DNA of 64,000 bases, from positions 1,225,439 through 1,289,438 of the forward strand of contig OZ250160.1 of the NCBI GenBank assembly GCA_965237835.1. Direction: 5' to 3'. The notes under the pieces were generated by a model, which was given only the letters and a program-made list of their open reading frames with translations, did not search any database and had not been told where the DNA came from. The translations under genes and the position numbers were made by a program. How positions within the stretch are numbered: the first letter of the stretch is position 1; every line of letters begins with the position of its first letter. Origin of the DNA: Candidatus Poribacteria bacterium (GTDB lineage: Bacteria > Poribacteria > WGA-4E > WGA-3G). Of this stretch, positions 11,300 to 64,000 are shown one piece after another.

Positions 11300-11722
11300 C
11301 TTATGAAGTTTAAGTATTTAAATCGGTAAACCCGATTTCCCCGGGGCTGGTAGGTGCGGTTTCCTAACCGCACCATTAGCGTCAATTTAAGAAAATGTCT
11401 GCGTTTTATAAACACCTCTCAATAACCATGAGGACTGAGATTGTCTTATATTTAGTCCCGTAGGGACGATATGTTTATAGTACCTCGTCCCGCAAACCCA
11501 TCTCTTCAGCTCCGTAGGAGCGATATGTGTATAACGTCTTATATAAACATTCCGCTCCTACGGAGCTCTAAGAGATTAAGGACATCGTTTTCTATAAACA
11601 TTGCGTCCCTACGGGACTAAAGAGAATTCTCATATTTGAAAACCACTAAATTGACGCTTATGGTGCGGTTTCCTAACCGCACCGATAGGTTGGAATCAAG
11701 TTAATATGGTATAACAAGGCTT
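11300..11722. repeat. composite family-A MITE-like element (~420 bp), inverted copy at 30379..30774
   Basis: Ends carry GGTGCGGTTTCCTAACCGCACC hairpins and gcgtcaatttaa/ttaaattgacgc inverted repeats; interior has four ~24-bp palindromic modules; right terminus ttggaatcaagttaatatggtata. Confidence 0.85.
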
Positions 11723-18279: not shown

Positions 18280-18610
18280 GATAAACAGATTCAACAGGGT
18301 TATTTAGTTTTAGGCTTTTTGTCCATTTTAGACGAAAAGTCGCGATTCGGAGATCGCTCCTACAGCGGAAAGTCTTAGATTGAAAACCTAAATATTCGGA
18401 GAACTAAATAGCCCTGCAGATTCAATGACTACTGCTTTGTCCACCTAATTTTTGTGGTTTGTAGGTCGGGTAGAGCGTCCGCGAAACCCTCTGCTCTACC
18501 CGACCTACAATATTTTGGTGGACATAGCACTACTGTCCGTTGGGTAGAACGGAATCCACAATAAAATCCGACACAAAAAAGTGATTCATCCTCCATTTAA
18601 GATGTTTTAG
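18280..18610. repeat. nested repeats: family-H element (ttaacgtgagttcgata terminus) containing a family-C element (18297..18414)
   Basis: 18541-18610 is reverse complement of 52470-52540; family-C core gtcgcgattcggagatcgctcctacagcggaaag. Confidence 0.75.
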
Positions 18611-20715: not shown

Positions 20716-21504
20716 CTATTGCTCTAAGCGAGAAATTAACTCTTGGAACAATCCTGCAACAGTATCGTCCGAAACATCGGAAATACCTTCTTCAGTAATT
20801 ACTGTCAGCGTTGGAAAGATTTTCCTAATTAAATCGGGTCCTCCAGTCGCAATATCCTCGTCTGCAGCGTCCCAAAGTGCCTCAACGACTGCTTTTAAGG
20901 CGGCTTGTTCAGACATATCCGATTGATACACCTTTTTTAAAGTTGAACGCGCATCTTTCCCACCGGAACCGATAGCATAATAGGCGTCTTCCTCATAACG
21001 TCCGCCAAGTGCATCATATTTAAAAATTCGCCCCTTTTGTTGTTTTAGGTCATAGCCAGCAAAAATCGGCAGGACAACCAGCCCTTGCATAGCTAAACTT
21101 AAATTCGTTCTAACGAGGCTTGACAGATAGTTGGCTTGCCCATCCAGACTTAAAGAAATTCCCTCTATCTTTTCGTAAAATTCAACTTGAACTTGGAAAA
21201 GTTTTGCTGTTTCAAAACAGGGCCCCGCTACACCAGCGACAGCAATTGCAGAGTGTTTATCAATTTTAAACACTTTCTGAATCCGACGTTCCCCGACTTG
21301 GTAACCTTCGGTAGCTTGACGGTCCCCAGCGATTATGACACCATTATCGTATACAAGTGCCAGAACAGTAGTCCCTTCCAAAAAATTATGGGGGTAGGAC
21401 TCCCGCATCCCATTGAGTCGGTCCCAATCAGCTACCTTATCAGGGTATCGGTTTTTCAGAATTTGTAAAAAATCGGTATTTCCATAGTCATGGTGTTTGA
21501 GCAA
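20716..21504 (-). CDS. prcB: 20S proteasome beta subunit with propeptide
   Basis: 262 aa; propeptide then active-site threonine context EG/TTVLALVY; GGPDLIRKIFPT conserved. Confidence 0.9.
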   Translation of the reverse strand: MLKHHDYGNTDFLQILKNRYPDKVADWDRLNGMRESYPHNFLEGTTVLALVYDNGVIIAGDRQATEGYQVGERRIQKVFKIDKHSAIAVAGVAGPCFETAKLFQVQVEFYEKIEGISLSLDGQANYLSSLVRTNLSLAMQGLVVLPIFAGYDLKQQKGRIFKYDALGGRYEEDAYYAIGSGGKDARSTLKKVYQSDMSEQAALKAVVEALWDAADEDIATGGPDLIRKIFPTLTVITEEGISDVSDDTVAGLFQELISRLEQ

Positions 21505-21506
21505 TC

Positions 21507-21704
21507 CTACTGCCCTCCCCGCTGGATATAGTTTTCGACGAATTCCTCTGAATTTTCTTCTAAAATCTCATCGATTTCATCAAGAAGTGCATCTAAATCC
21601 TCAGTCAAATCGTCGACGTTTTCATTGAGTTCGGGATTGGGTTGGATCTCCTCATTTTCATTGGTGGGATGATCTCGGTATTCTTGCTGTTTTTCGCGTG
21701 GCAT
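21507..21704 (-). CDS. pup: prokaryotic ubiquitin-like protein Pup
   Basis: 65 aa, acidic, ...DLTEDLDALLDEIDEILEENSEEFVENYIQRGGQ; C-terminal GGQ as in Pup. Confidence 0.85.
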   Translation of the reverse strand: MPREKQQEYRDHPTNENEEIQPNPELNENVDDLTEDLDALLDEIDEILEENSEEFVENYIQRGGQ

Positions 21705-21796
21705 GTTGTACTCCTTTTCAATTCTGGCAACGGATACCCGTATGCCTCTATGTTTTCGAACATAATTCCATCAGGGAAAACTTTTTATCAACAAGA

Positions 21797-23284
21797 TTAT
21801 TTGCAGTTTGCTCGGATTTGGTTGACGAGTTCAACGACGGTACAAGAGTTCAGCAGTTCACCGATAATGGCTTGCGTGCCAAAGTGTGGACGGTCCATCA
21901 TAATCTTATCATAGCCGGTTGGACCGTTGAAAACGATTGAATTCCAGCTTACACTGTGAATGTCATTCGGAAATTTTCGTAAACATGTTCCTCGAAAATA
22001 TGCGCGCGTATCTAAAGGTGGATGTTGAATTGCATGGACTATTTCCTCCTGAGTTAAGATACGTTCAATATGTCCATTCTTGAGTAATCGTGCATAAAGT
22101 CCTTTATCTGGACGTAGGTCATGATACTGAAGGTCAAGCATACGAACGCGTGGGTCAGTCCATTTGAAATCGTGTCGCGCAATATAAGCATCAATAAGCT
22201 TTTTCTTAATAATCCAATCTAAATGCTGTCCTAAACTCATCGGGTCAGTTTTTAACCCATTTAGGACAAAATCCCATTTCTCCAAAACATCTTCAACTAT
22301 AGGTGTGCGTTCCTCATCCGTGAGATGTTTATGTGCCAGTTCAAGATATGCTTGCTGAATTTCTATAGCTGACCATTTACGATCATCTTTAAGTTCAATC
22401 TTGTTCTTGCATGACAAATCACGCGAAACAGATTTTACCATCGCAACAGGATCTTGTAAAGCGAATTGCTTACCGACAACACCTTTCTCAATTAATTGCA
22501 GGACGATAGACGTAATACCAACTTTCAGATAGATAGAGAATTCGGACAAGTTTGAATCGCCTACGATAACATGCAACCGACGATAAAACTTTGAATCTGC
22601 GTGCGGTTCGTCTCGAGTGTTGATCAAAGGACGTTCAACCATTGTGCTCAGACCGACCTCTTTTTCAAAGAAATCTGCGCGTTGTGAAATCTGATATTCG
22701 GTTTCGTCCGCTCCGTTTTCTACCCCCACCTTCCCACTTCCGGTAATTATCTGACGTGTAACGAGGAAAGGCGTGAACCCATCAACTATATCCGAAAACG
22801 GAATTTTACGTGACATCAAGTAATTTTCATGTGAACCGTAACTATGTCCTTTGTAGTCAGTATTGTTTTTATAGATAATTATCTCTTGATTATCCAATAG
22901 CAGTTGTTCGGCAGCAAGACGACTCAAATCTAAAATGAGTTCTCCAGCTTTTTCGTATTTGACCAAGTCGCGAGCATTTGAACATTCAGGTGTGCAATAT
23001 TCAGGGTGTGCGTGATCAACATAATATCTACCACCGTTCACCAAAATATCGTTTATTACACTGTTGTTCCCATCTTCTACTGGCGGGTTTTCGCCTTCCG
23101 CTATAAATCCACGTGCGTCTATCAATGGACTTTCTTGCGCGTAATCCCACGAAATTGTTGGAATGTTACGGCTTTTGTACGCGTTTACAACTAAGGTTGA
23201 AGCCGCTATAGGGTCTTGCTCTCGCGCATTTTTGACAGAGATGCCGAACTCAGTTTCGGTGCCTATAATTGTTGGTACTGCCAT
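21797..23284 (-). CDS. dop: Pup deamidase/depupylase
   Basis: 495 aa; GTETEFG, Dop-specific insertion (SWDYAQESPLIDARGF), YVDHAHPEYCTPEC, NTRDEPHAD. Confidence 0.9.
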   Translation of the reverse strand: MAVPTIIGTETEFGISVKNAREQDPIAASTLVVNAYKSRNIPTISWDYAQESPLIDARGFIAEGENPPVEDGNNSVINDILVNGGRYYVDHAHPEYCTPECSNARDLVKYEKAGELILDLSRLAAEQLLLDNQEIIIYKNNTDYKGHSYGSHENYLMSRKIPFSDIVDGFTPFLVTRQIITGSGKVGVENGADETEYQISQRADFFEKEVGLSTMVERPLINTRDEPHADSKFYRRLHVIVGDSNLSEFSIYLKVGITSIVLQLIEKGVVGKQFALQDPVAMVKSVSRDLSCKNKIELKDDRKWSAIEIQQAYLELAHKHLTDEERTPIVEDVLEKWDFVLNGLKTDPMSLGQHLDWIIKKKLIDAYIARHDFKWTDPRVRMLDLQYHDLRPDKGLYARLLKNGHIERILTQEEIVHAIQHPPLDTRAYFRGTCLRKFPNDIHSVSWNSIVFNGPTGYDKIMMDRPHFGTQAIIGELLNSCTVVELVNQIRANCK

Positions 23285-24410
23285 TAGTGATACTCACGAC
23301 GGAAACCAAAGCCGTGTGCTTCTTTTAGCACACAACCATCCTCTGTGATTCCTGCTTCCGTCTCTCGTGCCTCAAACAGAGGTCTTACTTGGACTCCACA
23401 GGCGTTTATACTCTCTGTCTATCCGACAGCAAGGTGTTTTAGGTTTATTGCAGCGTTGACATCTCTATCTATTTGATAGTCGCATTGACTGCAATGATAA
23501 GTTCTCTCTGATAGCGTCAAGTCATCTTTTTTGTGTCTACAACTACTACAAGTTTTGCTTGATGCATAGAATTGCGGTGCTTCTAATACAGGTATTCCGA
23601 AAGCATCTGCTTTCGTTTTTAGCTTATTTAGAAACCCGCCTAACGCTGAATCTGATAACGCCTTTGCTAACTTTCTATTCTTTAGCATGTTTGTCACCTT
23701 GAGTGTTTCTATGCTGATAGCACCTGCACGACGGATAATATCGGTAGTTGCTTTGTGGTGCACATCGTTTCTGATACAAGCGATACGATAGTGGATACGT
23801 TCTACCTTGTGTTTTTGTTTAGACCAGTTATTTGATCTAAACACTTTACGGCTCAACTTTCGTTGATCTCGTTTGAGTTTTCTCTCATAGCGTTTTAGGG
23901 GTCTTGGATTATCATACTTAGTCCCATCACTCAAGGTTGCCATTGTTGTTAAGAGTTCACCACGATTGGAAGTTGTCTTGATCTAAACCTGCCTTGAAAT
24001 CTGACAACGCTTGATTATATGCAAATCTCGCATAGCCACATTGTTGTGAAAACCAGCGTCTTTGCTTAAAAGTGGGATCTAAAGTTATTTTGTGTGTTTT
24101 GTATGGCATATCTGACTCCCATAGGTTTCTGACTCCCTCGTCAAAGGTGTGGTAGGTGTTGACGCACCCACCACTGAGTCAGTCTTATAATTATACCACA
24201 AAATACATGTAAATGTCAAGCGTTTTTTGACCCACAACCAGGGTTATTTAGTTTTAGACTTTTTGTCCATTTTAGACGAAAAGTCGCGATTCGGAGATCG
24301 CTCCTACAGGGGAAAGTCTTAGATTGAAAATCTAAATATTCGGAGAACTAAATAGCCCTGGACCCACAACTAAAGCAGTGGGATTGTCAGCTAATTCCCT
24401 TCACTTTCGG
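23285..24410 (-). mobile_element. degenerate IS605-family element filling the arc-dop spacer, with a nested family-C MITE (24241..24358)
   Basis: Right-end module (taaacgcctgtggagtcc...gtgtgctaaaagaagcacac hairpin) abuts dop start codon; left-end hairpin (cactgctttagttgtgggtc) abuts arc stop codon. Confidence 0.65.
23419..24115 (-). pseudogene. tnpB: tnpB with internal deletion (N-terminal 57 codons then stop; C-terminal 174-codon ORF)
   Basis: C-terminal ORF has RuvC-II/III and zinc finger (CSSCRHKKDDLTLSERTYHCSQCDYQIDRDVNAAIN); reverse complement of 24000-24115 encodes MPYKTHKITLDPTFKQRRWFSQQCGYARFAYNQALSDF... then stop. Confidence 0.7.
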
Positions 24411-24432
24411 AATCAAGTGGAATCATCAAACG

Positions 24433-26238
24433 TTAGAGATATGTCCCGCCTGTGCTCACTCGCACATCAGGACGTGCCTGTGGTTCATTGATTAAGGCTC
24501 GAATGTTGACAATTTTCTCACCTTTCCTGCCAGATATTTTTGCCCAATCATCTGGATTAGTTGTATTTGGAAGGTCTTCATTTTCATGGTACTCTTCCCG
24601 AATAGCAGTCTTCAGATCATGCAGAGAAATTCCTTTTTCTTTCCCTTCTGAACTGATTAGACGTTTAATCGCTATTTTCTTTGCCCGTGAAACAATGTTT
24701 TGAATCATCGCACCGCTAACGAAATCTTTGAAAAAGAGAGTCTCGCGTTCGCCGCGGGTGTATGTTACTTCAATAAACCTATTCTCATCTGTGGTCGCGT
24801 ACATTTCGTCTACAGCCGCAGATATGAGGTATTCTGAAACGTCATCAGTATTTCCATCAAACTTTTCTATTTCTTTTTTCGCAAACGGAAGATCCGGCGT
24901 TAAATAGATACCAAAAATATCCTTAGCACCGTCAATATTCGGACGGTCAATCTTGATTTTGATGTCAAGTCTTCCCGGTCTCAAAACAGCGGGATCCAGA
25001 AGGTCCTGTCGATTACTTGCGCCGATAACAATAACATCACGTAAATTTTCTACGCCATCAATTTCTGCGAGAAACTGTGGTACCAGTGTAGACTCCATGT
25101 CTGATGAGATACCTATGCCGCGTGATCGGAACAGTGAGTCCATTTCGTCGAAGAAGATAACTACTGGGAAACCCTCTTTTGATTTTTCACGTGCTTTTAG
25201 GAACACCTCTCGTATCTTTCGTTCAGTTTCACCGACATACTTATTGAGAATTTCTGGTCCCTTAATATTTATAAAATACCCTCTAATATCATCTCTATCG
25301 GTCTGTTGACGAATACGTTCTGCGAGGCAATTGGCAACCGCTCGCGCAATTAATGTTTTTCCACAGCCTGGCGGTCCATACAGGAGTACACCTTTTGGCG
25401 GCATAAGATCAAATTCGCGGTACTCATCTGGATAAAGATAAGGCATTTCAATGGCGTCTCGAATCGCCTCTATCTGTGTATCCAAACCACCGATGTCAGC
25501 ATAACTAATATCTGGAACTTCTTCGAGCAGTAGGTCATCAAGTTCGCGTTTTGGAAGTTTTTCAAGTAGCATACCGCTGGTATGATTCAATAAGACGCTG
25601 TCGCCGGTCTTCAAAGTTTCGTTTTTCAACGCTGCAGAAACGCGCACGACTTGTTCTTCATCTGTTCTGAGGTTGACAATAGCGCGGTCAGATTCAAGTA
25701 CCTCTTTTATCTTAACAACATCACCGTGTTTCTCAGGCTGTTTGATTGCGATGACATTTAAGCCACTATTCACGATGACTTCTTGTCCTACTTGTATTTG
25801 ATCGGCTTTTATGGCAGGATCAAGATTCACACGCCATTTTTTTCCGCTGATATCTACATCAATAGTGTTGTCATCGTTCGCACTAAGGAAGATGCCGTAG
25901 TTGTTTGGAGGGGCACTGAGTTGCTTAACCTTCTCTTTTAGGAGTTCAAGTTTCTCTTTTGCTTCTTGAAGGGTACTTGTGATTTTTCGGTTGCGTCTGT
26001 GCGCCTGCATAAGTTCGCGCGTCATTTCATAGAGACGTGCGTCTACATCTTCATCAGGAGCTGCTCTGAGTTGTCTTCTCAGGTCACCGACTTCGTTCTC
26101 AAGCATCTCTATCTGCCAATTTAACTCACGTATTAACTGTGGATAGTCAACCGAATCTGATTTGATCCCTTCAATATCGGGACCTTTCAATATATCAGAT
26201 GAAGTCTCTATTTTGCTTGCCATACAAGAATTTCTCAC
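24433..26238 (-). CDS. arc: proteasome-associated AAA ATPase (ARC/Mpa)
   Basis: 601 aa; N-terminal coiled coil, AAA+ GPPGCGKT; C-terminal ...GGTYL resembles GQYL docking motif. Confidence 0.9.
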   Translation of the reverse strand: MRNSCMASKIETSSDILKGPDIEGIKSDSVDYPQLIRELNWQIEMLENEVGDLRRQLRAAPDEDVDARLYEMTRELMQAHRRNRKITSTLQEAKEKLELLKEKVKQLSAPPNNYGIFLSANDDNTIDVDISGKKWRVNLDPAIKADQIQVGQEVIVNSGLNVIAIKQPEKHGDVVKIKEVLESDRAIVNLRTDEEQVVRVSAALKNETLKTGDSVLLNHTSGMLLEKLPKRELDDLLLEEVPDISYADIGGLDTQIEAIRDAIEMPYLYPDEYREFDLMPPKGVLLYGPPGCGKTLIARAVANCLAERIRQQTDRDDIRGYFINIKGPEILNKYVGETERKIREVFLKAREKSKEGFPVVIFFDEMDSLFRSRGIGISSDMESTLVPQFLAEIDGVENLRDVIVIGASNRQDLLDPAVLRPGRLDIKIKIDRPNIDGAKDIFGIYLTPDLPFAKKEIEKFDGNTDDVSEYLISAAVDEMYATTDENRFIEVTYTRGERETLFFKDFVSGAMIQNIVSRAKKIAIKRLISSEGKEKGISLHDLKTAIREEYHENEDLPNTTNPDDWAKISGRKGEKIVNIRALINEPQARPDVRVSTGGTYL

Positions 26239-29579: not shown

Positions 29580-29856
29580 ACGCTATTCTACATGTCAATG
29601 TTATTTTTACTGTGGTATATAAGTGTTTTGTCATCTGAATCGCGGGTTATGCGGATTGCACAGATAGATAGGTACAGTATTGCTTCTCTTGTAGGTTCCC
29701 GATAATTACTGAGTCCTGTTAACAAAAAGATTCACAAGTGCACAACTTGAATGAAACCCACTTTTTTGAAAGCTTTTATGAAAAAGGCAATCGGTTGCCG
29801 AGCGAGACAGCATTGGCGTACGAGTATTTTAAGCTGTACCGAGATATGTTTTCAGA

Positions 29857-30192
29857 GGAGCGTTCTTTGCGCGCACTATGTGAACGCGAAGTGAACGGTA
29901 AAAAAAGATCAATTTCACAAATGGGACGTTGGTCAAAAGAGGAGCATTCTTTGCGCGCGCTATGTCACCTGGATGTCACCGGTAAAAAAAGATCTGAACG
30001 CGTTTTTAAACGTTGGTCAAGAGAGGAGCGTTCTTTGCGCGCGCTATGTCACCTGGATGTCACCGGTAAAAAAAGATCTGAACGCGTTTTTAAACGTTGG
30101 TCAAGAGAGGAGCGTTCTTTGCGCGCGCTATGTCACCTGGATGTCACCGGTAAAAAAGATCTAAACGCGTTTTTAAACGTTGGTCAAGTGAA
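29857..30192. repeat. 84-bp tandem repeat x4
   Basis: ggagcgttctttgcgcgcgctatgtcacctggatgtcaccggtaaaaaaagatctgaacgcgtttttaaacgttggtcaagaga; copy 1 diverged, last copy has 1-nt deletion. Confidence 0.9.
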
Positions 30193-30378
30193 CACAATTG
30201 GCAGGAACGAGTTGCGACTTATGATGCTGAGGTAGAACTTTCGTTTGTGATAAATCTGTCGCAGAAGTTTAAGTAGTGGAAGTATCTAAAACCTCGCGCG
30301 TATGGCTGGTCTAAGTGTTTAGCAAGGTGAAATTAAAATGTCTATTATGTTATATATAAATTTACATAATAGACTAAT

Positions 30379-30774
30379 ACCAAATTAACTTGATTCCAAT
30401 CTATCGGTGCGGCTTCCTAACCGCACCATAAGCGTCAATTTAGTGGTTTTCAAATATGAGAATTCTCTTTAGTCCCGTAGGGACGCAATGTTTATAGAAA
30501 ACGATGTCCTTAATCTCTTAGAGTTCCGTAGGAGCGGAATGTTTATATAAGACGTTATACACATATCGCTCCTACGGAGCTGAAGAGATGGGTTTGCGGG
30601 ACGAGGTACTATAAACATATCGTCCCTACGGGACTAAATATAAGACAATCTCAGTCCTCATGCTTATTGAGAGGTGTTTATAAAACGCAGACATTTTCTT
30701 AAATTGACGCTAATGGTGCGGTTTCCTAACCGCACCTACCGTCCTGAAAATAAGACAAATCCCGTTAATAAGGT
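30379..30774. repeat. composite family-A MITE-like element, reverse-complement copy of 11300..11722
   Basis: Near-identical over ~390 bp in inverted orientation; termini ataccaaattaac and cccgttaat. Confidence 0.85.
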
Positions 30775-35312: not shown

Positions 35313-35798
35313 ATGAGGGCTGCTCTTGTACCACAGGAATAACATAACTTCGAATCGTAAAACCATCTAATGTCTCAGTTTCTACACGATGTTCGGGGAC
35401 TGTGCGGTGATCAAATACGACGTAGTATCCTTCTGTAGCACCTTCAGATTTGAGATAGGCAGCAAGTTGTCTTTTACCAACTTGATAGCGGTGGTTACTT
35501 TCCCAAATCTTGGTTTCAATGATGTATTTTTGCGCGTTGTGAAGGATAAGCAGGTCTATCCTGCCGCGCCCGGTTTGGACTTCAAGGTACATTGCACCTT
35601 GTACGATTCGAACGAACTGATCCAGATATGTATAGAGGAGATATTGTCCTACGAACTCTTTTGGCGTATCTGGCACATGTAAGATTTTGAAACCAGCCCG
35701 TGCAATAAAAGCCTGAAAGTTATCAAGCAGCGTTGCCATTTCAATTTTTCCATCGGTTGTAAGGTAATCAATGAAATCTGTATCTTGACATCTCCCAC
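35305..35798 (-). pseudogene. C-terminal PD-(D/E)XK nuclease-like domain of a split AAA-ATPase-like protein
   Basis: 144-aa ORF is open upstream to the IS-derivative boundary (...DTDFIDYLTTDGKIEMATLLDNFQ...); such domains normally follow the AAA-ATPase-like domain in one polypeptide. Confidence 0.6.
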
Positions 35799-36200
35799 AC
35801 CTAAAGGAGTGGGATTCTTAGGTCTTATATCAGTCCTTAATGTTTCTGAATGCCTTGTTCCTGCTTCTGCATCCACTGCTCCGTAGTTGAGTCTAACACG
35901 GACTCCACAGGCGTTTAGACTCTCCCAGTGTCCCCAGGCGAGTTATTAGTGAATGTGGTAGGGATGTTGTCCTAACAACATATATTAGTTTTTCTCTACC
36001 ACATTCTAATGTTTTGAGTGATTTCGCACCAGCACCACACACCTTATCACGGATGGGGACAGGACTCAACACAGGTAAGTGTTGAGGTGATAACCCTGTC
36101 CAACGATGCTACATATAGTATATGCTATTTCGGTGCAAATGTCAAGCGTTTTTTGACCCACAGCTAAAGCAGTGGGATTGTTAGTTAATTCCCTTCATTT
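35795..36200 (-). mobile_element. tnpB-less IS605-family derivative inserted into the AAA-ATPase-like/PD-(D/E)XK gene
   Basis: Hairpins cccactcctttaggtgtggg and cccactgctttagctgtggg at the ends; gactccacaggcgtttagactc right-end module; ~85% identical to inverted copy 45790..46075. Confidence 0.7.
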
Positions 36201-44954: not shown

Positions 44955-45770
44955 GTGAACGCCGGAAAAACAATCAATATACCTAAGCTTGAACTTTCTC
45001 CTCAGGAACGGGCTGAAAGCAAGCTTACACCAGAGAACCTTGATGCTGCCACGCGTCTTTTACGCGAGACAGGATTAGTTGTTATTGAGAGTGTTCTCCC
45101 ACGCGATTGGATAGAAGAGGTTAACGTTGCGATGCAAGCAGGGCTTGATATGGAAGAAGATGACCAAAACGGTGAAAACCCGATGTTGAAAATGCCGTTC
45201 ATGGATGCACGTATTATTGACAACCCTTTTGCAATGCCGATAATGAAAGCTGCGATGGGTGAGAAGATTTTCGCGTATTTGCCCTACGGATGCAACTCAA
45301 CCTCTCCAGGATCCGAGATACAATGGATTCATAGAGATTCTGGTCAGCTCTTCCCAGAATTACCGTTCGCGTTGCCTGTTTCAACAATTGTTGTGAACAT
45401 TCCACTCGTTGATTTTACAGTTGAAAACGGTGCTACAGAGGTATGGCCCGGGTCACATCTTATCGTTGATGACGTGGCAGTACGCAATACACCGTACAAC
45501 GTTTGTGAGGAAACTCGTGCGGCACAACTCCCGTCTTTTCAGTTAGTGATGCCTGCGGGTTCGGTTGTGGTGCGTGATATGCGGTGCTGGCACCGAGCAA
45601 TGCCGAATCGAACACAAATTCACCGTCCTATGCTCGCTCTCGTCTATTTCCGAAGGTTTCATCATTCACCCAATGCACCGAACATATTCAACGCACGGGT
45701 TTCAGAAGAAATATGGATGGATATGTCCGAAGATGCACAAGAAGTTTATCGATTTCAGGCGCACGATTAG
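44955..45770 (+). CDS. PhyH-family dioxygenase
   Basis: 271 aa; WIHRDSG (H-x-D), WHRAMPN distal His. Confidence 0.7.
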   Translation: MNAGKTINIPKLELSPQERAESKLTPENLDAATRLLRETGLVVIESVLPRDWIEEVNVAMQAGLDMEEDDQNGENPMLKMPFMDARIIDNPFAMPIMKAAMGEKIFAYLPYGCNSTSPGSEIQWIHRDSGQLFPELPFALPVSTIVVNIPLVDFTVENGATEVWPGSHLIVDDVAVRNTPYNVCEETRAAQLPSFQLVMPAGSVVVRDMRCWHRAMPNRTQIHRPMLALVYFRRFHHSPNAPNIFNARVSEEIWMDMSEDAQEVYRFQAHD

Positions 45771-45789
45771 GAGGAAAATATGAAGGGAA

Positions 45790-46075
45790 TTATCTGACAA
45801 TCCCACTGCTTTAGCCGTGGGTCAAAAAACTTATGACATTTGCACCAAAACATGTTAGACTATATGTCCCATCGTGGATAGGGTTTCCACCCCGGACAAC
45901 CTGTATGGGTCCTATCCCTCACCTGTGGAAAGGTGTGTGATGCTGTGCGAAATCACTTAAAACATTAGAATGTGGTAGAGAAAAACTAATGTCCGTTGTT
46001 ACTACAACGACCCTACCACATTCGCTAACAACCTACCGTGGGATACACGGAAAGTTACGCCTGTGGAGTACAAAT
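45790..46075 (+). mobile_element. tnpB-less IS605-family derivative (inverted copy of 35880..36200)
   Basis: caatcccactgctttagccgtgggtc hairpin, cgcctgtggagtac right-end module; family-B element inserted at its right end. Confidence 0.65.
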
Positions 46076-46077
46076 AA

Positions 46078-46168
46078 GACCCAATTAACCCAATTCGTAG
46101 CGTGAGGTCCCCGTGCCTCACAATGCTTGACTTTATCAGAAAACTTCAAATCAAGTTAATTTGGTATA
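46078..46168. repeat. family-B MITE-like element
   Basis: cccaattaacccaattcgtagcgtgaggtccccgtgcctcacaatgc...caagttaatttggtataat. Confidence 0.8.
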
Positions 46169-46186
46169 ATAGCAAAACTGAAATGT

Positions 46187-46378
46187 GTGAAACGGTCTTC
46201 AATCAACAAAGGAAAGCAAAACGATATTGAGAAGGATATGGAGTTAGTTATTTTTGTTTCATCTATTGTAATTTCGGCTATTCTCATCATGATACGTGGA
46301 GAACTCAAGGATATTGGTGAAAGTCTACACGAGATTGGGAAACATCTTGACCGAATTAATAGGAAAGATGGAAGTTGA
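46187..46378 (+). CDS. small hypothetical membrane protein
   Basis: 63 aa, one TM helix; weak. Confidence 0.3.
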   Translation: MKRSSINKGKQNDIEKDMELVIFVSSIVISAILIMIRGELKDIGESLHEIGKHLDRINRKDGS

Positions 46379-46512
46379 CAAACAGACAGAATCGAGCGGT
46401 GAAACTACGCAGTCGATCTCTCTGCCCGATCCTCTGTTAGGACAGTTGGCTCACAGTATTCCTTAACCTGCACATCTGAAATTTGCGGTTGGGTAGAACG
46501 CAGCTAAACCAA

Positions 46513-47364
46513 ATGGCACAAAATTACGATAATATGGCAAAAAATCTGTTAACAGATTATGCCACCGAAATCTCACAGTTTGTACTCGGTGTGAAAGATG
46601 TTAAAGTCCTTGAAAATCTTGACACTGAACAACAGACTATTATAGGACAACACACTGATAGCACAAAACGTGTCCGTGTCAATAACCACGAAGTTATTTT
46701 GCACATAGAGCTGCAACTCCGCGATAGCACGCGCAAACCGATGTGGGCACGAAACGCAGCGTATCACGGATACCTCGTCGGTGAACATCAGATGCCTGTC
46801 TACTCCAACGTCATCTATTTCCATCCAAATGCTGGAAGGAATGACACCGGAATATACGAATATAGTTGGCGCGGTTACAAATACACCTTGCACTACAAAG
46901 TGATACGACTTATTGAGATAGACGGTCAATCGGTTTTGGAAATGCAGGCACCAGGCATGCTGCCATTTACGCCTCTCATGAAACCGCCTACGGGGATGAA
47001 CGCTGAACAGTGGGTGCAACAATGTGTTGATGCGACAACTGCCGCCTCTGTCGATCAGCGAACACATGCAGATTTACTTTATGCTATTTATCTCTTCGGA
47101 TGCATAGCACACGATCCTGAACTTTTTAAACGAATTATACCGGAGGAAATTATGCGAGAATCTAAGGCTTTTCAACTTATCTTAAGAGAGACTACCATCA
47201 AACATATCTTGGCATTATTGCAGGTGAAATTCCAGGCAGAAGCAGTGAGTGCGCTAACACCAGCACTTGAAAACATTGACGATTTACAACGTCTTGAACA
47301 GTTGCTTCTTGATGCAGCGCAGGTAGAAAGCCTTGAAGCCTTCACACAAATGCTACAGGAGTAG
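46513..47364 (+). CDS. Rpn-family (YhgA-like) PD-(D/E)XK recombination-promoting nuclease/putative transposase with DUF4351-like C-terminus
   Basis: N-terminal PD-(D/E)XK region; C-terminal LQRLEQLLLDAAQVESLEAFTQMLQE resembles DUF4351. Confidence 0.65.
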   Translation: MAQNYDNMAKNLLTDYATEISQFVLGVKDVKVLENLDTEQQTIIGQHTDSTKRVRVNNHEVILHIELQLRDSTRKPMWARNAAYHGYLVGEHQMPVYSNVIYFHPNAGRNDTGIYEYSWRGYKYTLHYKVIRLIEIDGQSVLEMQAPGMLPFTPLMKPPTGMNAEQWVQQCVDATTAASVDQRTHADLLYAIYLFGCIAHDPELFKRIIPEEIMRESKAFQLILRETTIKHILALLQVKFQAEAVSALTPALENIDDLQRLEQLLLDAAQVESLEAFTQMLQE

Positions 47365-47433
47365 ATTGAACGGTAGCAACAGAATAGACATCTACTTGTA
47401 AGCGCACTGTTAATAGTGTCCAAGAATTATAGT

Positions 47434-47724
47434 TTATGAAGTTTAAGTATTTAATTCGGTAAAGCCGGTTTTCCCCAGGGCCGGTAGGTGCGGTTTCCTA
47501 ACCGCACCATAAGCGTCAATTTAGTGATCCTCCAGGTCCGGTAGGTGCGGTTAGGAAACCGCCCCGTTTCGTTTTCGCAACTGATTATCGGACGCATATT
47601 CCATAAGTTCCGGTGTGGTTACAAACCGCACCTACCGGGTTGGGGACCGCTAAATTGACGCATAAGGGGCGGTTTCCTAACCGCACCGATAGATTGGAAT
47701 CCCGTTAATTTGGTATAAGACCTC
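47434..47724. repeat. family-A MITE-like element with two GGTGCGGTTTCCTAACCGCACC-type hairpins
   Basis: Same termini as 11300 and 48762 elements; ends cccgttaatttggtata. Confidence 0.8.
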
Positions 47725-47830
47725 ATTCGGAGGCACGAGAGACGGAAGCAGGAATCACATAGGAGAGTTGTGTGCAAAAGAAGCACACGGCTTTAGCCGT
47801 CGTGAGTATCACACGTACTCTGCTTATTCA
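47722..47830 (+). repeat. solo IS605 right-end (omega-RNA-scaffold-like) module
   Basis: ggcacgagagacggaagcaggaatcaca.agga...gttgtgtgcaaaagaagcacacggcttt...cgtcgtgagtatcac ~85% identical to reverse complement of 23286-23385 (upstream of dop); supplies the first ~22 codons of ORF 47772. Confidence 0.65.
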
Positions 47831-47837
47831 TCCAGAT

Positions 47838-48704
47838 ATGTCCGATATTGATAGAGAACACGGGTTTGCCAATATCAATGGTCCTTCGCTTGTTCGTGTG
47901 CCAGAGTGGGTAGAAAACCCGTTGGGTAAATACTATCTCTACTTTGCACACCATCGCGGCACTTATATCCGTTTGGCTTATGCTGATGAAATTGAGGGAC
48001 CCTATACCGTCTATCGTTTTGGCACATTGCATCGTGATAACACTGTCTTTCGGGGATGCGACCACATTGCTTCACCAGATGTTCATATAGATGAGGAAAA
48101 CCGCCGCTTTATTATGTATTTTCACGGAAATTATCGCGGTGGACAAGCAACATGTTGGGCGACATCTCCAGATGGCATTTATTACACAGCAACGGAATCG
48201 TTAGAGAAGCAGCAAGGACCTTATTTTCGTGTCTTTTGGTGGAAAGGTCTTCCTTATGCAACAAATCACAACATGCTAAACCGCGGTAAGACTGCTGAAT
48301 GGACGACTGTGTTTGAAAGACGCGCTGCTCCGCTTTTTCCTGGAGAACCGGGTAAAGGTAGAGATGGAACCCCACGGCATACTGCTAATCATCTTGTGGG
48401 GGATACGTTGACCGTTTATTATTCGCTTTACGGGGATACTCCGGAACGGATTTTAAAAAGCACAGTGGAGCTGACAGAAGATTGGAACGATTGGCATCCA
48501 TCCGCACCGACAGAGGTTATCGCACCAAAATACGATTTTGAGGGGGTGGATATTCCGATTGTTCCTTCAACGAATGGGCTTGACAGGGAACGTGTGCATC
48601 AACTCCGTGACCCAGATATCTATTGTGAGGATGGGGAGATGTGGCTTCTCTATTCTGTGGCTGGTGAACAGGGCATCGCGATTACGAAACTTTCTTCTGA
48701 ATAG
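47838..48704 (+). CDS. putative glycoside hydrolase-like beta-propeller protein
   Basis: Start moved to MSDIDREHG (47838) because 47772-47837 is repeat-derived; five-bladed propeller-like motifs (LRDPDIYCEDGEMWLLYSVAG); family uncertain. Confidence 0.5.
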   Translation: MSDIDREHGFANINGPSLVRVPEWVENPLGKYYLYFAHHRGTYIRLAYADEIEGPYTVYRFGTLHRDNTVFRGCDHIASPDVHIDEENRRFIMYFHGNYRGGQATCWATSPDGIYYTATESLEKQQGPYFRVFWWKGLPYATNHNMLNRGKTAEWTTVFERRAAPLFPGEPGKGRDGTPRHTANHLVGDTLTVYYSLYGDTPERILKSTVELTEDWNDWHPSAPTEVIAPKYDFEGVDIPIVPSTNGLDRERVHQLRDPDIYCEDGEMWLLYSVAGEQGIAITKLSSE

Positions 48705-48761
48705 TTTTAGGAGGAGGAACTTTGTAGTGCTGTTTATTATAACTTGCAATGCTAACGTAAT

Positions 48762-49153
48762 AATACCAAATTAACGGGATTTATCTTATTTTCCGGACGG
48801 TAGGTGCGGTTTCCTAACCGAACCATAGGCGTCAATTTAGTGCGTCTGATACACCTTTCGCCTCTCCGAGGCTTTGGTAAATCACATCTTAGCACCAGCG
48901 GTGCGACAGGTATATAGAAAACGGTGTAAAAAGTCTCTTGAACCCCAGCGGGGTGACAGGTGTCTGACAACATGTGCCCATATACACCTTTCGCCCCGCT
49001 GGGGCTTGAGTTTGGTATGGATCGTGGTCTATACACATTCCGCCCCGCTGGGGCTAAGATATTCAAAATATAGGTTTATTTCCTTAAATTGACGCCTATG
49101 GTGCGGTTTCCTAACCGAACCGATAGATTGGAATCAAGTTAATTTGGTATAAA
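48762..49153. repeat. family-A MITE-like element with internal CCCCAGCGGGG palindromic modules
   Basis: Termini ataccaaattaacgggatt...GGTGCGGTTTCCTAACCGAACC and reverse; interior differs from the 11300 copy. Confidence 0.8.
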
Positions 49154-62841: not shown

Positions 62842-64000
62842 ATGAAAATATCTATGCAAATAATATATTTTTTTGCAAGTTTAGTTTTAGTACTCTTTGT
62901 CCCTTGTTTTGCTTTTGTGCCAACCACGGTAGCGGATCCAGGTGGTCCGGAAGGTGGTTTTACCTATTATTTAGCAGCGTGGGATGGTAGTTCTACCTAC
63001 TCCGATGGTAAATTCTTTCTTACGAACGATTTACGCGGGTCAACATTGGTTGATTTAGAAAATGATGCTAATGGTTATCTTCCGATAATTTTTGATTTTG
63101 GTGTGCCTATATATGGCAACCCCGATGGCACTGGATTTCCTGTGATATCAGACATTACGTTGGTTGATGTTCAAAAAAGTAGTGATTCAAGTTCTATACT
63201 GGATCATGGTGTCGTCATTGAAAGAGTGAGTCCGCTTCATGAACCTGAAAAGTTCCTTGTAGACATTAGAGTGCCTAATAGTCTTTTTGACGATTTGCCA
63301 ATAACGGTTATATTAGAGGTGCCAGAGAACACAATATATAACGAAGATGGTGTGGGGAATGTTGCCTATGGACCAATAGAGTTAAATATCTTTGGGAGAT
63401 TTTCATTTAGCGTAAAAGATGTATCATATTATTTAGCAGCGTGGGATGGTAGTCCTACCTACTCCGATGGAAAATTCTTACTTGGGAACGATTTGCGAGT
63501 ATCAACATTGGTTGATTTAGAAAATGATGCTAATGGTTACCTTCCGATAATTTTTGATTTTGGTGTGCCTATATATGGCAATCCTGATGGCACTGGATTT
63601 CCTGTGATATCAGACATTACGTTGGTTGATGTTCAAAAAAGTAGTGATTCAAGTTCTATACCGGGTCATGGTGTCGTCATTGAAAGAGTGAGTCCGCTTC
63701 CTGAACCTGAAAAGCTTCTTGTAGACATTAGAGTGCCTAATAGTCTTTTTGACGATTTGCCAATAACGGTTATATTAGAGGTGCCAGAGAACACAATATA
63801 TAACGAAGATGGTGTGGGGAATGTTGCCTATGGACCAATAGAGTTAAATATCTTTGGGAGATTTTCATTTAGCGTAAAAGATGTATCATATTATTTAGCA
63901 GCGTGGGATGGTAGTCCTACCTACTCCGATGGAAAATTCTTGCTTGGGAACGATTTGCGAGTATCAACATTGGTTGATTTAGAAAATGATGCTAATGGTT
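62842..64000 (+). CDS. secreted repetitive protein, 3' end beyond window; contains 462-bp near-identical tandem repeats
   Basis: ATG at 62842, RBS aaggag; signal peptide MKISMQIIYFFASLVLVLFVPCFAFVPTTVADP; repeat unit starts at 62968, 63430, 63892 (YYLAAWDGS.TYSDGKF...); not in ORF track because no stop in window. Confidence 0.75.
   Translation, partial: MKISMQIIYFFASLVLVLFVPCFAFVPTTVADPGGPEGGFTYYLAAWDGSSTYSDGKFFLTNDLRGSTLVDLENDANGYLPIIFDFGVPIYGNPDGTGFPVISDITLVDVQKSSDSSSILDHGVVIERVSPLHEPEKFLVDIRVPNSLFDDLPITVILEVPENTIYNEDGVGNVAYGPIELNIFGRFSFSVKDVSYYLAAWDGSPTYSDGKFLLGNDLRVSTLVDLENDANGYLPIIFDFGVPIYGNPDGTGFPVISDITLVDVQKSSDSSSIPGHGVVIERVSPLPEPEKLLVDIRVPNSLFDDLPITVILEVPENTIYNEDGVGNVAYGPIELNIFGRFSFSVKDVSYYLAAWDGSPTYSDGKFLLGNDLRVSTLVDLENDANG

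What the first reader, a model, noticed from the sequence alone, without database searches (positions are those of the whole stretch)
47722..47830. Solo IS605 right-end (omega-RNA-like) module reused as the 5' end of a gene; ~85% identical to the module upstream of dop
The sequence 47722-47822 (ggcacgagagacggaagcaggaatcaca...gttgtgtgcaaaagaagcacacggcttt...cgtcgtgagtatcac) is the reverse-complement homolog of 23286-23385. There is no tnpB nearby; upstream is a family-A MITE. ORF 47772 starts inside this module, so its first ~22 codons (VQKKHTALAVVSITR...) are repeat-derived. The native protein probably starts at MSDIDREHG (47838). The same module sits immediately 5' of two unrelated genes (dop and this GH-like gene), which suggests it carries an outward promoter/5'UTR or is an orphan omega-RNA-like transcript.
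Basis: seen in the sequence. Interest (0 to 1): 0.55.

Follow-up and report, generated by a model that had tools for sequence, protein, structure and literature searches.

The report
Split transposon remnant inside a gene start
The 100-base "module" is the last 94 bases of a small gene-less IS605-type transposon that landed inside the second codon of a sugar-hydrolase-like gene and was later split by a second insertion. It is an ordinary kind of element, but it sits at a revealing site.

Summary
The repeat is real. Window 47716-47812 (+) is 88% identical to the reverse complement of 23287-23387. It belongs to a family with at least 96 copies, nearly all in Candidatus Poribacteria genomes, and every copy ends sharply at ...GTGAGTATCAC.

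It is the right end of a tnpB-type IS200/IS605 element, where the omega-RNA is encoded, but it is not solo. Bases 47719-47812 are the 3' piece of a 387-nt gene-less left-end-plus-right-end element (PATE-like). Its 5' piece lies at 45785-46077. A 1.64-kb MITE-bounded insertion at a TAA separates the two pieces. Sister strains carry the element unsplit at the same site, and a more distant relative has the empty site.

The element inserted after ATGAA, inside codon 2 of the hydrolase-like gene. The native N-terminus is MKRTLLIHPDMSDI..., not MSDIDREHG, and its Shine-Dalgarno and ATG are stranded at 45769-45782.

Across the family the target is TGAA, usually ATGAA. In 13 of 52 reconstructed sites the ATG or TTG of that motif is a gene's start codon. 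The right end always offers an in-frame GTG, and here a second GTG preceded by AGGAG. Whether the gene is still translated from these is inferred, not shown.

The element is a new member of a known kind. The start-codon bias is the interesting part.

The parts
45769..45774 (+). Native Shine-Dalgarno (AGGAGG) of the hydrolase-like gene. It overlaps the PhyH stop codon (TAG 45768-45770).
   Evidence: Read from the sequence. The same arrangement is seen in the empty-site ortholog L097.
45780..45784 (+). ATGAA: the native start codon plus the first 2 nt of codon 2. This is the target site (TAM) immediately 5' of the element's left end.
   Evidence: The empty site in L097 reads ATGAA|ACGG... and the occupied sites read ATGAA|GGGAATTA.... 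TGAA is invariant at 39 of 40 left-end flanks.
45785..46077 (+). 5' piece (293 nt) of the gene-less LE+RE element. It holds the left end, a subterminal hairpin (45802-45821), a promoter-like site (45833-45861), and the 5' arms of RNA helices 1-2.
   Evidence: It is collinear with the intact 387-nt element in L100:4655-5041 and with 13 copies in OZ244616.1. Hairpin, promoter-like site.
46078..47718 (+). Nested 1,641-bp insertion including one TAA copy (TAA at 46075-77 and 47716-18). It comprises a MITE at 46078-46166, ORFs 46187-46378 and 46483-47364, and a MITE at 47434-47715.
   Evidence: It is absent from L100, L101 and L102, which carry the element unsplit. MITE ends. The ORFs have no Pfam or NCBIfam hit.
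47719..47812 (+). 3' piece (94 nt) of the element: the right end, i.e. the 3' part of the omega-RNA scaffold. It contains the subterminal hairpin 47787-47800. This is the module of the finding.
47761..47774 (+). SD-like AGGAG (47761-65) followed 6 nt later by GTG (47772-74), in frame with the gene. This is the start chosen by public annotation (P0001, 310 aa).
47802..47804 (+). GTG at -11 from the right end (GTG AGT ATC AC|N). It is in frame for any ATGAA| insertion and is present in all 80 right-end variants examined.
47813..47832 (+). First 20 nt of flank. By analogy with other TnpB systems this is the guide portion of an omega-RNA. It is also codons 2-8 of the gene.
   Evidence: Position relative to the right-end boundary. 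Its role as a guide is inferred from established TnpB biology.
47813..48704 (+). Body of the hydrolase-like gene from the third base of codon 2 to the stop. RTLLIHPD is at 47814-47837 and the internal Met11 ATG at 47838.
   Evidence: Orthologs P0002-P0010 start M(K/E/Q)RTLLIHP.... dN/dS is given.
23287..24399 (-). Second family member: a decayed 1,113-nt IS between mpa/arc and dop. Its left end is at 24399, preceded by GTGAA. It holds a truncated tnpB (23419-23943) and a right end (23287-23405) that stops 2 nt before the dop ATG.
35785..36193 (-). Third family member: a gene-less LE+RE element with a diverged right end, inserted after ATGAA inside an ORF.
   Evidence: (31.9 bits).

Best explanation
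SHOWN. The module is the terminal 94 nt of the right end of a 387-nt non-autonomous IS200/IS605-family element (left end plus right end, no gene; PATE-like). Its full-length relatives (about 1.37 kb) encode only TnpB, an ISDra2-like RNA-guided nuclease.

The element inserted without target duplication immediately 3' of ATGAA. That is after the start codon and two bases of codon 2 of a hydrolase-like gene lying 9 nt downstream of a PhyH gene. The gene's SD and ATG now sit at 45769-45782 and its body starts at 47813. Later, 1.64 kb of MITE-bounded DNA inserted at a TAA inside the right end, which is a recurrent MITE landing site in this family. This left the 94-nt piece next to the gene and made it look solo.

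The right-end region is a conserved, covariation-supported RNA structure. It ends exactly at the transposon boundary, as omega-RNA scaffolds do. In the window copy that structure is broken by the nested insertion.

INFERRED.
- In the intact form, transcripts from the upstream operon or from the left-end promoter-like site read through the element. There they would yield an omega-RNA whose guide is the first ~16-20 nt of the gene. A TnpB supplied in trans could use it to re-cut the empty ATGAA site, which is the usual retention or homing role.
- The host gene, having lost its own start, would be translated from a GTG supplied by the right end. Candidates are 47772 (AGGAG 6 nt upstream) and the invariant GTG at 47802. 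Either would keep the conserved residues 3-10.
- The family's target, (A)TGAA, overlaps the common ATG-AAN gene start. This is why right ends so often abut gene starts.

The confidence of 0.8 applies to the structural account, which alone is about 0.9. Translation from a right-end GTG is about 0.45.
For: Family and boundary:
- At least 96 Poribacteria copies all end at GTGAGTATCAC followed by unrelated flanks.
- About 30 copies follow a full tnpB, about 10 a C-terminal remnant and about 26 none.
- The TnpB has OrfB_IS605, Cas12f1-like_TNB and HTH_OrfB_IS605 domains. It matches ISDra2 TnpB structures at E 5e-45.
- Thirteen gene-less copies occur in one genome, all with the same ends.

Insertion site:
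- Orthologs start MKRTLLIHPDMSDI.
- The empty site in L097 reads AGGAGACATATATGAA|ACGGACA...
- The intact element is at the same site in L100, L101 and L102.
- The window equals that element plus an insertion flanked by TAA copies.

Target: TGAA at 39 of 40 left-end flanks, with A at -5 in 28 of 40.

RNA: the proposed structure is 98% paired, against at most 52% when partners are slid. It has 21 double-change cells against 3.9 in shuffles. The 252-nt 3' region folds with z = -4.2.

Start-codon bias:
- In 13 of 52 reconstructed sites an ORF of at least 90 aa starts at the ATG or TTG of the target motif.
- The background is 1.4% of all TGAA sites and 6.2% of non-genic ones (p = 2e-13 and 1e-5).
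- Several downstream N-termini are recognisable Rossmann or P-loop starts.

Replacement starts: an in-frame GTG at -11 is present in all variants. GTG at -41 with AGGAG is present in the window variant.

Selection: between the two insertion-bearing strains the gene has dN/dS 0.11 (7 nonsynonymous, 17 synonymous changes; p = 7e-7 against neutrality). The neighbours show 0.14-0.15.

Transcription: no plus-strand terminator-like site in 45600-47900. The left-end promoter-like site is ATGACA-17-TAGACT, which corresponds to TTGACA-17-TATAAT in the full IS.
Against: - No expression data exist. Use of either GTG, read-through transcription and omega-RNA production are all inferred.
- The element differs at only 3 of 387 nt between the window and L100, while synonymous divergence of flanking genes is 0.09-0.15. 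The insertion allele may therefore be younger than the strain split, having spread by recombination or homing. In that case the dN/dS value mostly predates the insertion and says little about present function.
- GTG 47802 has no SD. The SD-preceded in-frame start exists in only about 7 of 18 start-codon cases.
- In the window the left-end promoter-like site is 1.64 kb further from the gene, and MITE hairpins intervene.
- No Y1 TnpA was looked for genome-wide, and none is present in the elements examined.
- No Rfam family matches the RNA.
Confidence: 0.8

Rival explanations
1. A solo right-end (orphan omega-RNA-like) module carries its own outward promoter or 5' UTR and has been co-opted as the 5' end of unrelated genes.
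For: Right ends lie just upstream of co-oriented gene starts far more often than control TGAA sites do (32:4 against 404:316, p = 5e-5). The module contains AGGAG plus an in-frame GTG. About 26 family copies lack tnpB.
Against: The copy is not solo, because its left end and 5' body lie at 45785-46077. No sigma-70-like promoter was found in 47719-47812. The tnpB-less copies are complete LE+RE elements, not isolated right ends. Adjacency follows from the ATGAA target.
Confidence: 0.12
2. The insertion simply killed the gene. The hydrolase-like ORF is a young pseudogene, ORF 47772 is an annotation artefact, and the module has no role for the host.
For: The SD and ATG are separated from the gene body by 2 kb. 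The element allele looks much younger than the strain split (3 of 387 differences), so an intact ORF and a low dN/dS may be historical. A further 1.64-kb insertion has accumulated. ATG 47838 has no SD.
Against: The ORF is intact in three assemblies plus the window, with dN/dS 0.11, like its neighbours. Start-codon sites are 18-fold over-represented among surviving insertions, while other intragenic sites are under-represented. That pattern is hard to reconcile with start-codon hits being lethal to genes that matter. The frame needed is open and has a GTG in every right-end variant.
Confidence: 0.3
3. IStron-like behaviour. The element removes itself from the mRNA by self-splicing, restoring ATGAA|ACGT, so insertions in codon 2 are harmless.
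For: It would neatly explain tolerated insertions in coding starts. IStrons combine IS605/IS607 ends, TnpB and a group I intron (abstracts of 10.1101/2023.11.20.567912 and PMC13521648, listed).
Against: No group I or group II intron model matches L100:4500-5200 even at E <= 10. The 5' exon ends in A (TGAA) and the element ends in C (..CAC). Group I splicing needs a U at the end of the 5' exon and a terminal G; this rests on established knowledge. Only about 160 nt precede tnpB in the full IS.
Confidence: 0.03
4. The fragment still acts as a guide RNA with a trans-acting TnpB (or an inactivated TnpB) to regulate the hydrolase-like gene, in the manner of TldR-type repressors.
For: The flank that would serve as guide is the gene's own 5' coding sequence. 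TnpB copies are abundant in related genomes.
Against: The scaffold is split, because the 5' arms of helices 1-2 are 1.64 kb away. At the occupied locus the guide-matching DNA is preceded by ..ATCAC, not the TGAA motif. No tnpB or tldR-like gene is linked. The only tnpB in the window is a 174-aa fragment.
Confidence: 0.03

Closest known systems
PATEs (palindrome-associated transposable elements): gene-less IS200/IS605 derivatives that often encode omega-RNAs (Meers et al. 2023, PMC10055086; first described in Haloquadratum, PMC3119063)
   Same: Left end plus right end of an IS200/IS605-type element with no ORF. Multicopy with unrelated flanks. The right end carries the structured RNA region found 3' of tnpB in full-length relatives, and would depend on TnpA and TnpB in trans.
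   Different: This is a Poribacteria-specific sequence family with target TGAA/ATGAA. The window copy is interrupted by a nested 1.64-kb insertion and sits in codon 2 of a host gene.
ISDra2 / IS608-type IS200/IS605 elements with TnpB and omega-RNA (reRNA)
   Same: The TnpB is homologous over its full length to ISDra2 TnpB (E 5e-45). Insertion is 3' of a short specific motif without duplication. Subterminal hairpins lie 17 nt (left end) and 12 nt (right end) from the ends. A structured RNA ends at the right boundary.
   Different: No tnpA in the element (tnpB-only, IS1341-like organisation). The motif is TGAA, against TTGAT for ISDra2 and TTAC for IS608 (those two from general knowledge). No Rfam model matches the RNA.
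IS elements that supply outward expression signals to neighbouring genes (hybrid or outward promoters of IS1, IS2, IS10, IS256 and others)
   Same: A transposon end abuts a gene and may now provide its initiation signals.
   Different: What the end offers here is a possible translation start (an in-frame GTG, in some variants with AGGAG), not a demonstrated promoter. The adjacency arises from the target motif overlapping ATG-AAN.
IStrons (IS605/IS607 plus group I intron)
   Same: TnpB-family transposons that are tolerated inside genes.
   Different: No intron core is detectable and the boundary nucleotides are incompatible with group I splicing.

Membership tests
IS200/IS605 family | Insertion immediately 3' of a specific tetra- or pentanucleotide, with no target-site duplication | tested here: met
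   Comparison of empty site and occupied site: ATGAA|ACGG in L097, against ATGAA|element|ACGT in L100 and the window. TGAA precedes 39 of 40 left ends.
IS200/IS605 family | No terminal inverted repeats; subterminal imperfect palindromes at both ends | tested here: met
   The left-end hairpin CCCAC..GTGGG (45802-45821) starts 17 nt from the end. The right-end hairpin ACGGCTTTAGCCGT (47787-47800) stops 12 nt from the end. Both share GCTTTAGCCGT. The pair G128-C138 covaries as GC, AU and CG.
IS200/IS605 family | Accessory tnpB (OrfB_IS605 / RuvC plus zinc ribbon) in full-length members | tested here: met
   About 30 copies have a 358-390-aa TnpB directly upstream of the right end. Pfam domains; ISDra2 TnpB structures matched at E 5e-45.
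IS200/IS605 family | Mobilised by a Y1 (HUH) TnpA transposase, in cis or in trans | not tested
   The full element (1,364 nt) holds only tnpB.
PATE (non-autonomous IS200/IS605 derivative) | Left end and right end of the family with no protein-coding gene; several copies at different sites | tested here: met
   A 387-nt element in L100. Thirteen copies of 345-395 nt with unrelated flanks in OZ244616.1.
omega-RNA (reRNA) of TnpB | Encoded at the 3' end of tnpB and the right end, with the scaffold ending at the transposon boundary and the guide being the adjacent flank | tested here: met
   The conserved block runs from the tnpB stop, about 130 nt, to the invariant end GTATCAC. Flanks diverge immediately after it.
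omega-RNA (reRNA) of TnpB | Conserved secondary structure supported by compensatory changes | tested here: met
   26 pairs, 98% paired. Five pairs show double changes (21 cells against 3.9 in shuffles), and slid controls reach at most 52%. Caveat: the sequences are closely related and were retrieved with an invariant 20-mer.
omega-RNA (reRNA) of TnpB | Complete scaffold contiguous with its guide (for the window copy) | tested here: not met
   The TAA insertion site lies between the 5' arms of helices 1-2 (46057-46072) and their partners in 47719-47812.
omega-RNA (reRNA) of TnpB | Transcribed, processed and bound by TnpB; directs TAM-dependent cleavage | not testable with these tools
   Needs RNA-seq, RIP and TAM-depletion assays.
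Rfam-curated RNA families | Match to any of 4,227 covariance models | tested here: not met
   The window at gathering threshold gave only a tRNA. The intact element at E <= 10 gave only a chance snoRNA hit at E 9.6.
IStron | Group I intron core; 5' exon ending in U; element ending in G | tested here: not met
   No Intron_gpI hit. The exon ends ..TGAA and the element ends ..CAC.
IS end with outward promoter | Promoter elements within the terminal segment, reading outward | tested here: inconclusive
   No sigma-70-type match in 47719-47812. The one promoter-like site is in the left end (45833-45861). Poribacterial promoter consensus is unknown and no transcript data were available.

The most novel reading that the evidence does not exclude
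This Poribacteria IS605/TnpB family has a target motif, (A)TGAA, that makes Met-Lys/Asn start codons its favoured, tolerated landing sites. Its right end doubles as a portable translation-initiation cassette: an invariant in-frame GTG AGT ATC AC|N, with an SD-preceded GTG in some variants. This cassette would keep the decapitated host gene expressed. The host's own promoter, SD and ATG would then drive transcription into the element and so produce its guide RNA. That would be a mutually tolerable arrangement not described for TnpB transposons.
Probability: 0.25. Interest if true: 0.7.

Novelty: new member of a known kind. Interest (0 to 1): 0.45.

Why it matters
For annotation:
- The public 310-aa protein (P0001) has a 14-residue transposon-derived N-terminus.
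- The true N-terminus of the family is MKRTLLIHPD.
- "Solo" right-end repeats in MITE-rich genomes can be pieces of one element split by nested insertions.

For transposon biology, three observations give testable handles on how TnpB elements coexist with host genes and how other mobile DNA inactivates their guide RNAs:
- A TnpB family whose target overlaps ATG-AAN puts a quarter of its surviving copies exactly at gene starts.
- Its right end supplies an in-frame start codon.
- MITEs repeatedly hit one TAA in its guide-RNA scaffold.

If the TGAA motif is confirmed, it would also be another short targeting motif for compact genome-editing nucleases.

Tried and rejected
- Exact-sequence look-up of the 288-aa product starting at ATG 47838 found nothing on record. 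The public call uses GTG 47772 (P0001).
- My first guess was that 47412-47428 (tagtgtccaagaa) was the other half of the split right end. I rejected it. The real partner is 46040-46077, collinear with the intact element in L100, and 47434 onward is simply the variant left end of the MITE.
- Rfam at gathering and at E <= 10 gave no omega-RNA, intron or other family.
- The sigma-70 scan found no outward promoter in the module.
- Pfam and NCBIfam on the two ORFs of the nested insertion and on the hydrolase-like protein gave no significant family. Some homologs carry PF04616, Glyco_hydro_43.
- blastn of the 1.64-kb insertion against all fetched loci found only its two MITE ends repeated, with no second full copy.
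- I asked whether an SD-preceded in-frame start is a general feature of the right end. It is present in only a minority of variants, and only the GTG at -11 is universal.
- Two of the 98 20-mer hits (L049 Verrucomicrobiota, L053 Lachnospiraceae) are chance matches without the module.
- Literature: no paper holds both 'Poribacteria' and 'TnpB', and none links TnpB with a TGAA motif.

Full report
OBSERVATION

Window 47716-47812 (+) aligns with the reverse complement of 23287-23387 at 88% identity over 101 nt, E 7e-31. ORF 47772-48704 (GTG start, 310 aa) begins inside this stretch.

The copy at 23.3 kb lies directly 3' of a 174-aa C-terminal TnpB fragment (23419-23943, minus strand; Pfam OrfB_IS605 plus Cas12f1-like_TNB). 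That fragment sits between mpa/arc and dop.

Rfam at gathering threshold reports only a tRNA in the window.

THE FAMILY

Nearly all are in Candidatus Poribacteria MAGs, so the window almost certainly comes from a poribacterium. Two hits, in other phyla, are chance matches.

In all real copies the conserved block ends at ...GTGAGTATCAC and is followed by unrelated sequence. This is a transposon boundary.

tblastn with a TnpB taken from one copy classifies the copies:
- about 30 follow a full-length tnpB;
- about 10 follow C-terminal remnants, like the dop copy;
- about 26 have no tnpB.

That TnpB has HTH_OrfB_IS605, OrfB_IS605 and Cas12f1-like_TNB domains. It matches ISDra2 TnpB structures (8BF8, 8EXA, 8H1J) at E 5e-45 over its whole length.

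A full element (L060) is 1,364 nt and carries tnpB only. It has a perfect TTGACA-17-TATAAT in its left end.

The tnpB-less copies are not isolated right ends. Thirteen copies in genome OZ244616.1 align over about 390 nt, from a common left end (GGGAATTATCTGACAATCCCACTGCTTTAGCCGTGGGTC...) to the common right end. These are gene-less LE+RE elements of the kind called PATEs. Such elements are known often to encode omega-RNAs that must be used by TnpB in trans (PMC10055086).

THE WINDOW COPY IS NOT SOLO

The same left end occurs in the window at 45785, in the same orientation as the module. Sequence 45785-46077 is collinear with the gene-less element up to ...GTGGAGTACAAATAA. The module resumes at 47719 with GACCTCATTCGG...

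Sister-strain contigs L100, L101 and L102 carry the unsplit 387-nt element at the same genomic site (L100:4655-5041). It differs from the joined window pieces at 3 positions.

The intervening 46078-47718 is therefore a later insertion at a TAA, with TAA on both sides (46075-77 and 47716-18). It consists of:
- an 89-nt MITE (46078-46166);
- unique DNA with two ORFs (46187-46378 and 46483-47364), which have no family hit;

The same TAA carries MITE insertions in four other, independent family members: L005, L018, L064 and L088.

WHERE THE ELEMENT INSERTED

Homologs of the downstream protein begin M(K/E/Q)RTLLIHP(D/E)M... The closest without the insertion is P0002 (298 aa, 89% identity), which begins MKRTLLIHPDMSDIEREHGF.

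Its locus (L097) shows the empty site: PhyH gene, then AGGAGACATAT ATGAA|ACGGACACTACTAATTCATCCAGATATGTCC.

In the window the left junction is AGGAGGAAAAT ATGAA|GGGAATTA... The right junction is ...GTATCAC|ACGTACTCTGCTTATTCATCCAGATATGTCC. The element therefore lies after the second base of codon 2, with no duplication.

The native SD and ATG remain at 45769-45782. Codon 2's third base is 47813. RTLLIHPD (47814-47837) is native sequence. ATG 47838 is Met11, not the native start. The public 310-aa protein (P0001) starts at GTG 47772 inside the right end.

FAMILY MEMBERSHIP

The element meets the tested criteria for IS200/IS605:
- It inserts 3' of a fixed motif without duplication. TGAA is present at 39 of 40 left-end flanks, and A at -5 in 28 of 40.
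- It has no terminal inverted repeats.
- It has related subterminal hairpins at both ends, 17 nt from the left end and 12 nt from the right end.
- Full-length members carry tnpB.

A Y1 TnpA was not searched for.

THE RNA

An alignment of 36 distinct right-end variants gives an RNAalifold structure of 26 pairs. It is 98% paired, against at most 52% when partners are slid. It has 21 cells with compensatory double changes, against 3.9 in shuffles. The clearest case is one pair of the terminal hairpin, which appears as G-C, A-U and C-G.

The 3' 252 nt of the intact element fold with z = -4.2. No Rfam family matches.

A covariance model built from the alignment finds three copies in the window:
- 23287-23405 (127.5 bits);
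- 47698-47812 (105.7 bits; its first ~20 positions align to MITE sequence);
- a diverged one at 35785-35914 (31.9 bits).

The third belongs to another LE+RE element (35785-36193, minus strand) that interrupts an ORF.

The nested insertion in the window copy separates the 5' arms of helices 1 and 2 from their partners. The 94-nt piece is therefore not a complete scaffold.

WHY RIGHT ENDS SIT AT GENE STARTS

I reconstructed 52 empty sites by joining left and right flanks.
- In 13 of them an ORF of at least 90 aa has its first start codon at the ATG (or TTG) of the target motif.
- Five more have that ATG in frame within a slightly longer ORF call.
- Several downstream sequences are recognisable protein N-termini of Rossmann or P-loop type.

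Among 10,102 TGAA sites in the same loci, 1.4% are such starts. Among non-genic sites the figure is 6.2%. The excess has p = 2e-13 and 1e-5 respectively.

Right ends face a co-oriented gene start within 150 nt in 32 of 52 cases, against about 4 convergent gene ends. Control sites give 404 against 316 (p = 5e-5).

The simplest cause is the motif itself, since ATGAA is Met plus the first two bases of Lys or Asn. Selection against other intragenic hits and against antisense insertions in operons would add to it. The known lagging-strand bias of this transposition mechanism may also contribute.

IS THE GENE STILL USED?

For any ATGAA| insertion the gene's frame continues backwards into the right end as GTG AGT ATC AC|N. 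This GTG (47802 here) is present in all 80 variants. In the window variant the frame is open back to GTG 47772, which has AGGAG 6 nt upstream. About 7 of 18 start-codon cases have such an SD-preceded start.

Initiation at either GTG would keep the conserved residues 3-10. Initiation at Met11 would lose them.

Between the window and L100, which both carry the insertion, the gene has dS 0.089, dN 0.010 and dN/dS 0.11. Its neighbours show 0.15 (PhyH) and 0.14 (GFO/IDH). The departure from neutrality has p = 7e-7.

There is a caveat. The element itself differs at only 3 of 387 nt, far below the synonymous divergence (p = 8e-12). There are also no differences in 63 nt on one side and 75 nt on the other. 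The insertion allele may therefore be younger than the strain split, having spread by recombination or homing. In that case the dN/dS value largely reflects the time before the insertion. I therefore treat continued function as likely but unproven.

TRANSCRIPTION

The only sigma-70-like site on the sense strand near the element is in the left end (45833-45861, ATGACA-17-TAGACT with TG). None lies in the module, and no plus-strand terminator-like site occurs in 45600-47900. Read-through from the operon or from the left end is plausible for the intact allele. For the window allele it must cross 1.64 kb more.

ALTERNATIVES

- IStron-like self-splicing is excluded. No intron model matches. The boundary nucleotides, an exon ending in A and an element ending in C, are incompatible with group I splicing.
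- A TldR-like regulatory use is unlikely. The scaffold is split, the occupied site lacks the TGAA motif, and no linked tnpB exists.
- A plain dead gene remains a serious rival, at about 0.3.

VERDICT

The module is the 3' fragment of a PATE-like IS200/IS605 element inserted in codon 2 of a hydrolase-like gene and later split by a nested insertion. It is a new member of a known kind.

The notable, untested extension is that this family preferentially and tolerably occupies ATG-AAN start codons, and that its right end can supply the replacement start.

Noticed in passing
window 46075-46077; L005, L018, L064, L088 (right-end region): One TAA inside the right end (…GTCCAA(A/G)TAA|GACCTC…) carries a MITE insertion in five independent family members, and the MITE types differ. 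Each insertion splits the covariation-supported RNA helices. It may be a target hot spot or a recurrent way of inactivating the guide RNA.
   Followed up: partly
window 46078-47718: The nested 1.64-kb insertion is bounded by two different MITEs that share terminal repeats (TACCAAATTAAC-type, 3-bp TAA duplication). It carries ORFs of 63 and 293 aa with no Pfam or NCBIfam hit. It is either a composite mobilised as one unit or two successive hits on the duplicated TAA (46167-69). No second full copy was found in the fetched loci.
   Followed up: partly
window 45785-46077 plus 47719-47812, compared with L100:4655-5041: The element differs at only 3 of 387 nt between strains whose flanking genes have dS 0.09-0.15, and the immediate flanks (63 nt and 75 nt) show no differences. 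This suggests recent spread of the insertion allele by recombination or TnpB-type homing, or else concerted evolution.
   Followed up: partly
window 20716-26238 (-): This is a Pup-proteasome cluster (proteasome subunit, dop, mpa/arc) in a poribacterium. A decayed tnpB IS (23287-24399) is wedged between mpa and dop, and its right end stops 2 nt before the dop ATG. A 127-nt repeat (24239-24365; other copies at 18295 and 37403) occupies the place of the missing 5' half of tnpB.
   Followed up: partly
window 35785-36193 (-): A third LE+RE element with a diverged right end (…GGGAGATGTCAA) is inserted after ATGAA in the middle of an ORF that reads through the reconstructed junction.
   Followed up: partly
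window 11340-11718, 30374-30745, 47434-47715, 48761-49152 and many shorter copies: The window is very rich in MITEs. Several families share the ends TA(A/T)TACCAAATTAAC…GTTAATTTGGTA with TNA duplications. The hydrolase-like gene is bracketed by two copies of one family.
   Followed up: no
window 29842-30177; 62965-64000: There are four tandem 84-nt repeats at the first location, and 462-nt tandem repeats running to the window end at the second. Neither was examined.
   Followed up: no
window 45780-45797: After the insertion the stranded native SD and ATG open a 5-codon mini-ORF (ATG AAG GGA ATT ATC TGA) that stops inside the left end. The in-frame TGA is kept in the left-end variants seen (GGGAATTA(T/A/G)CTGA).
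   Followed up: no
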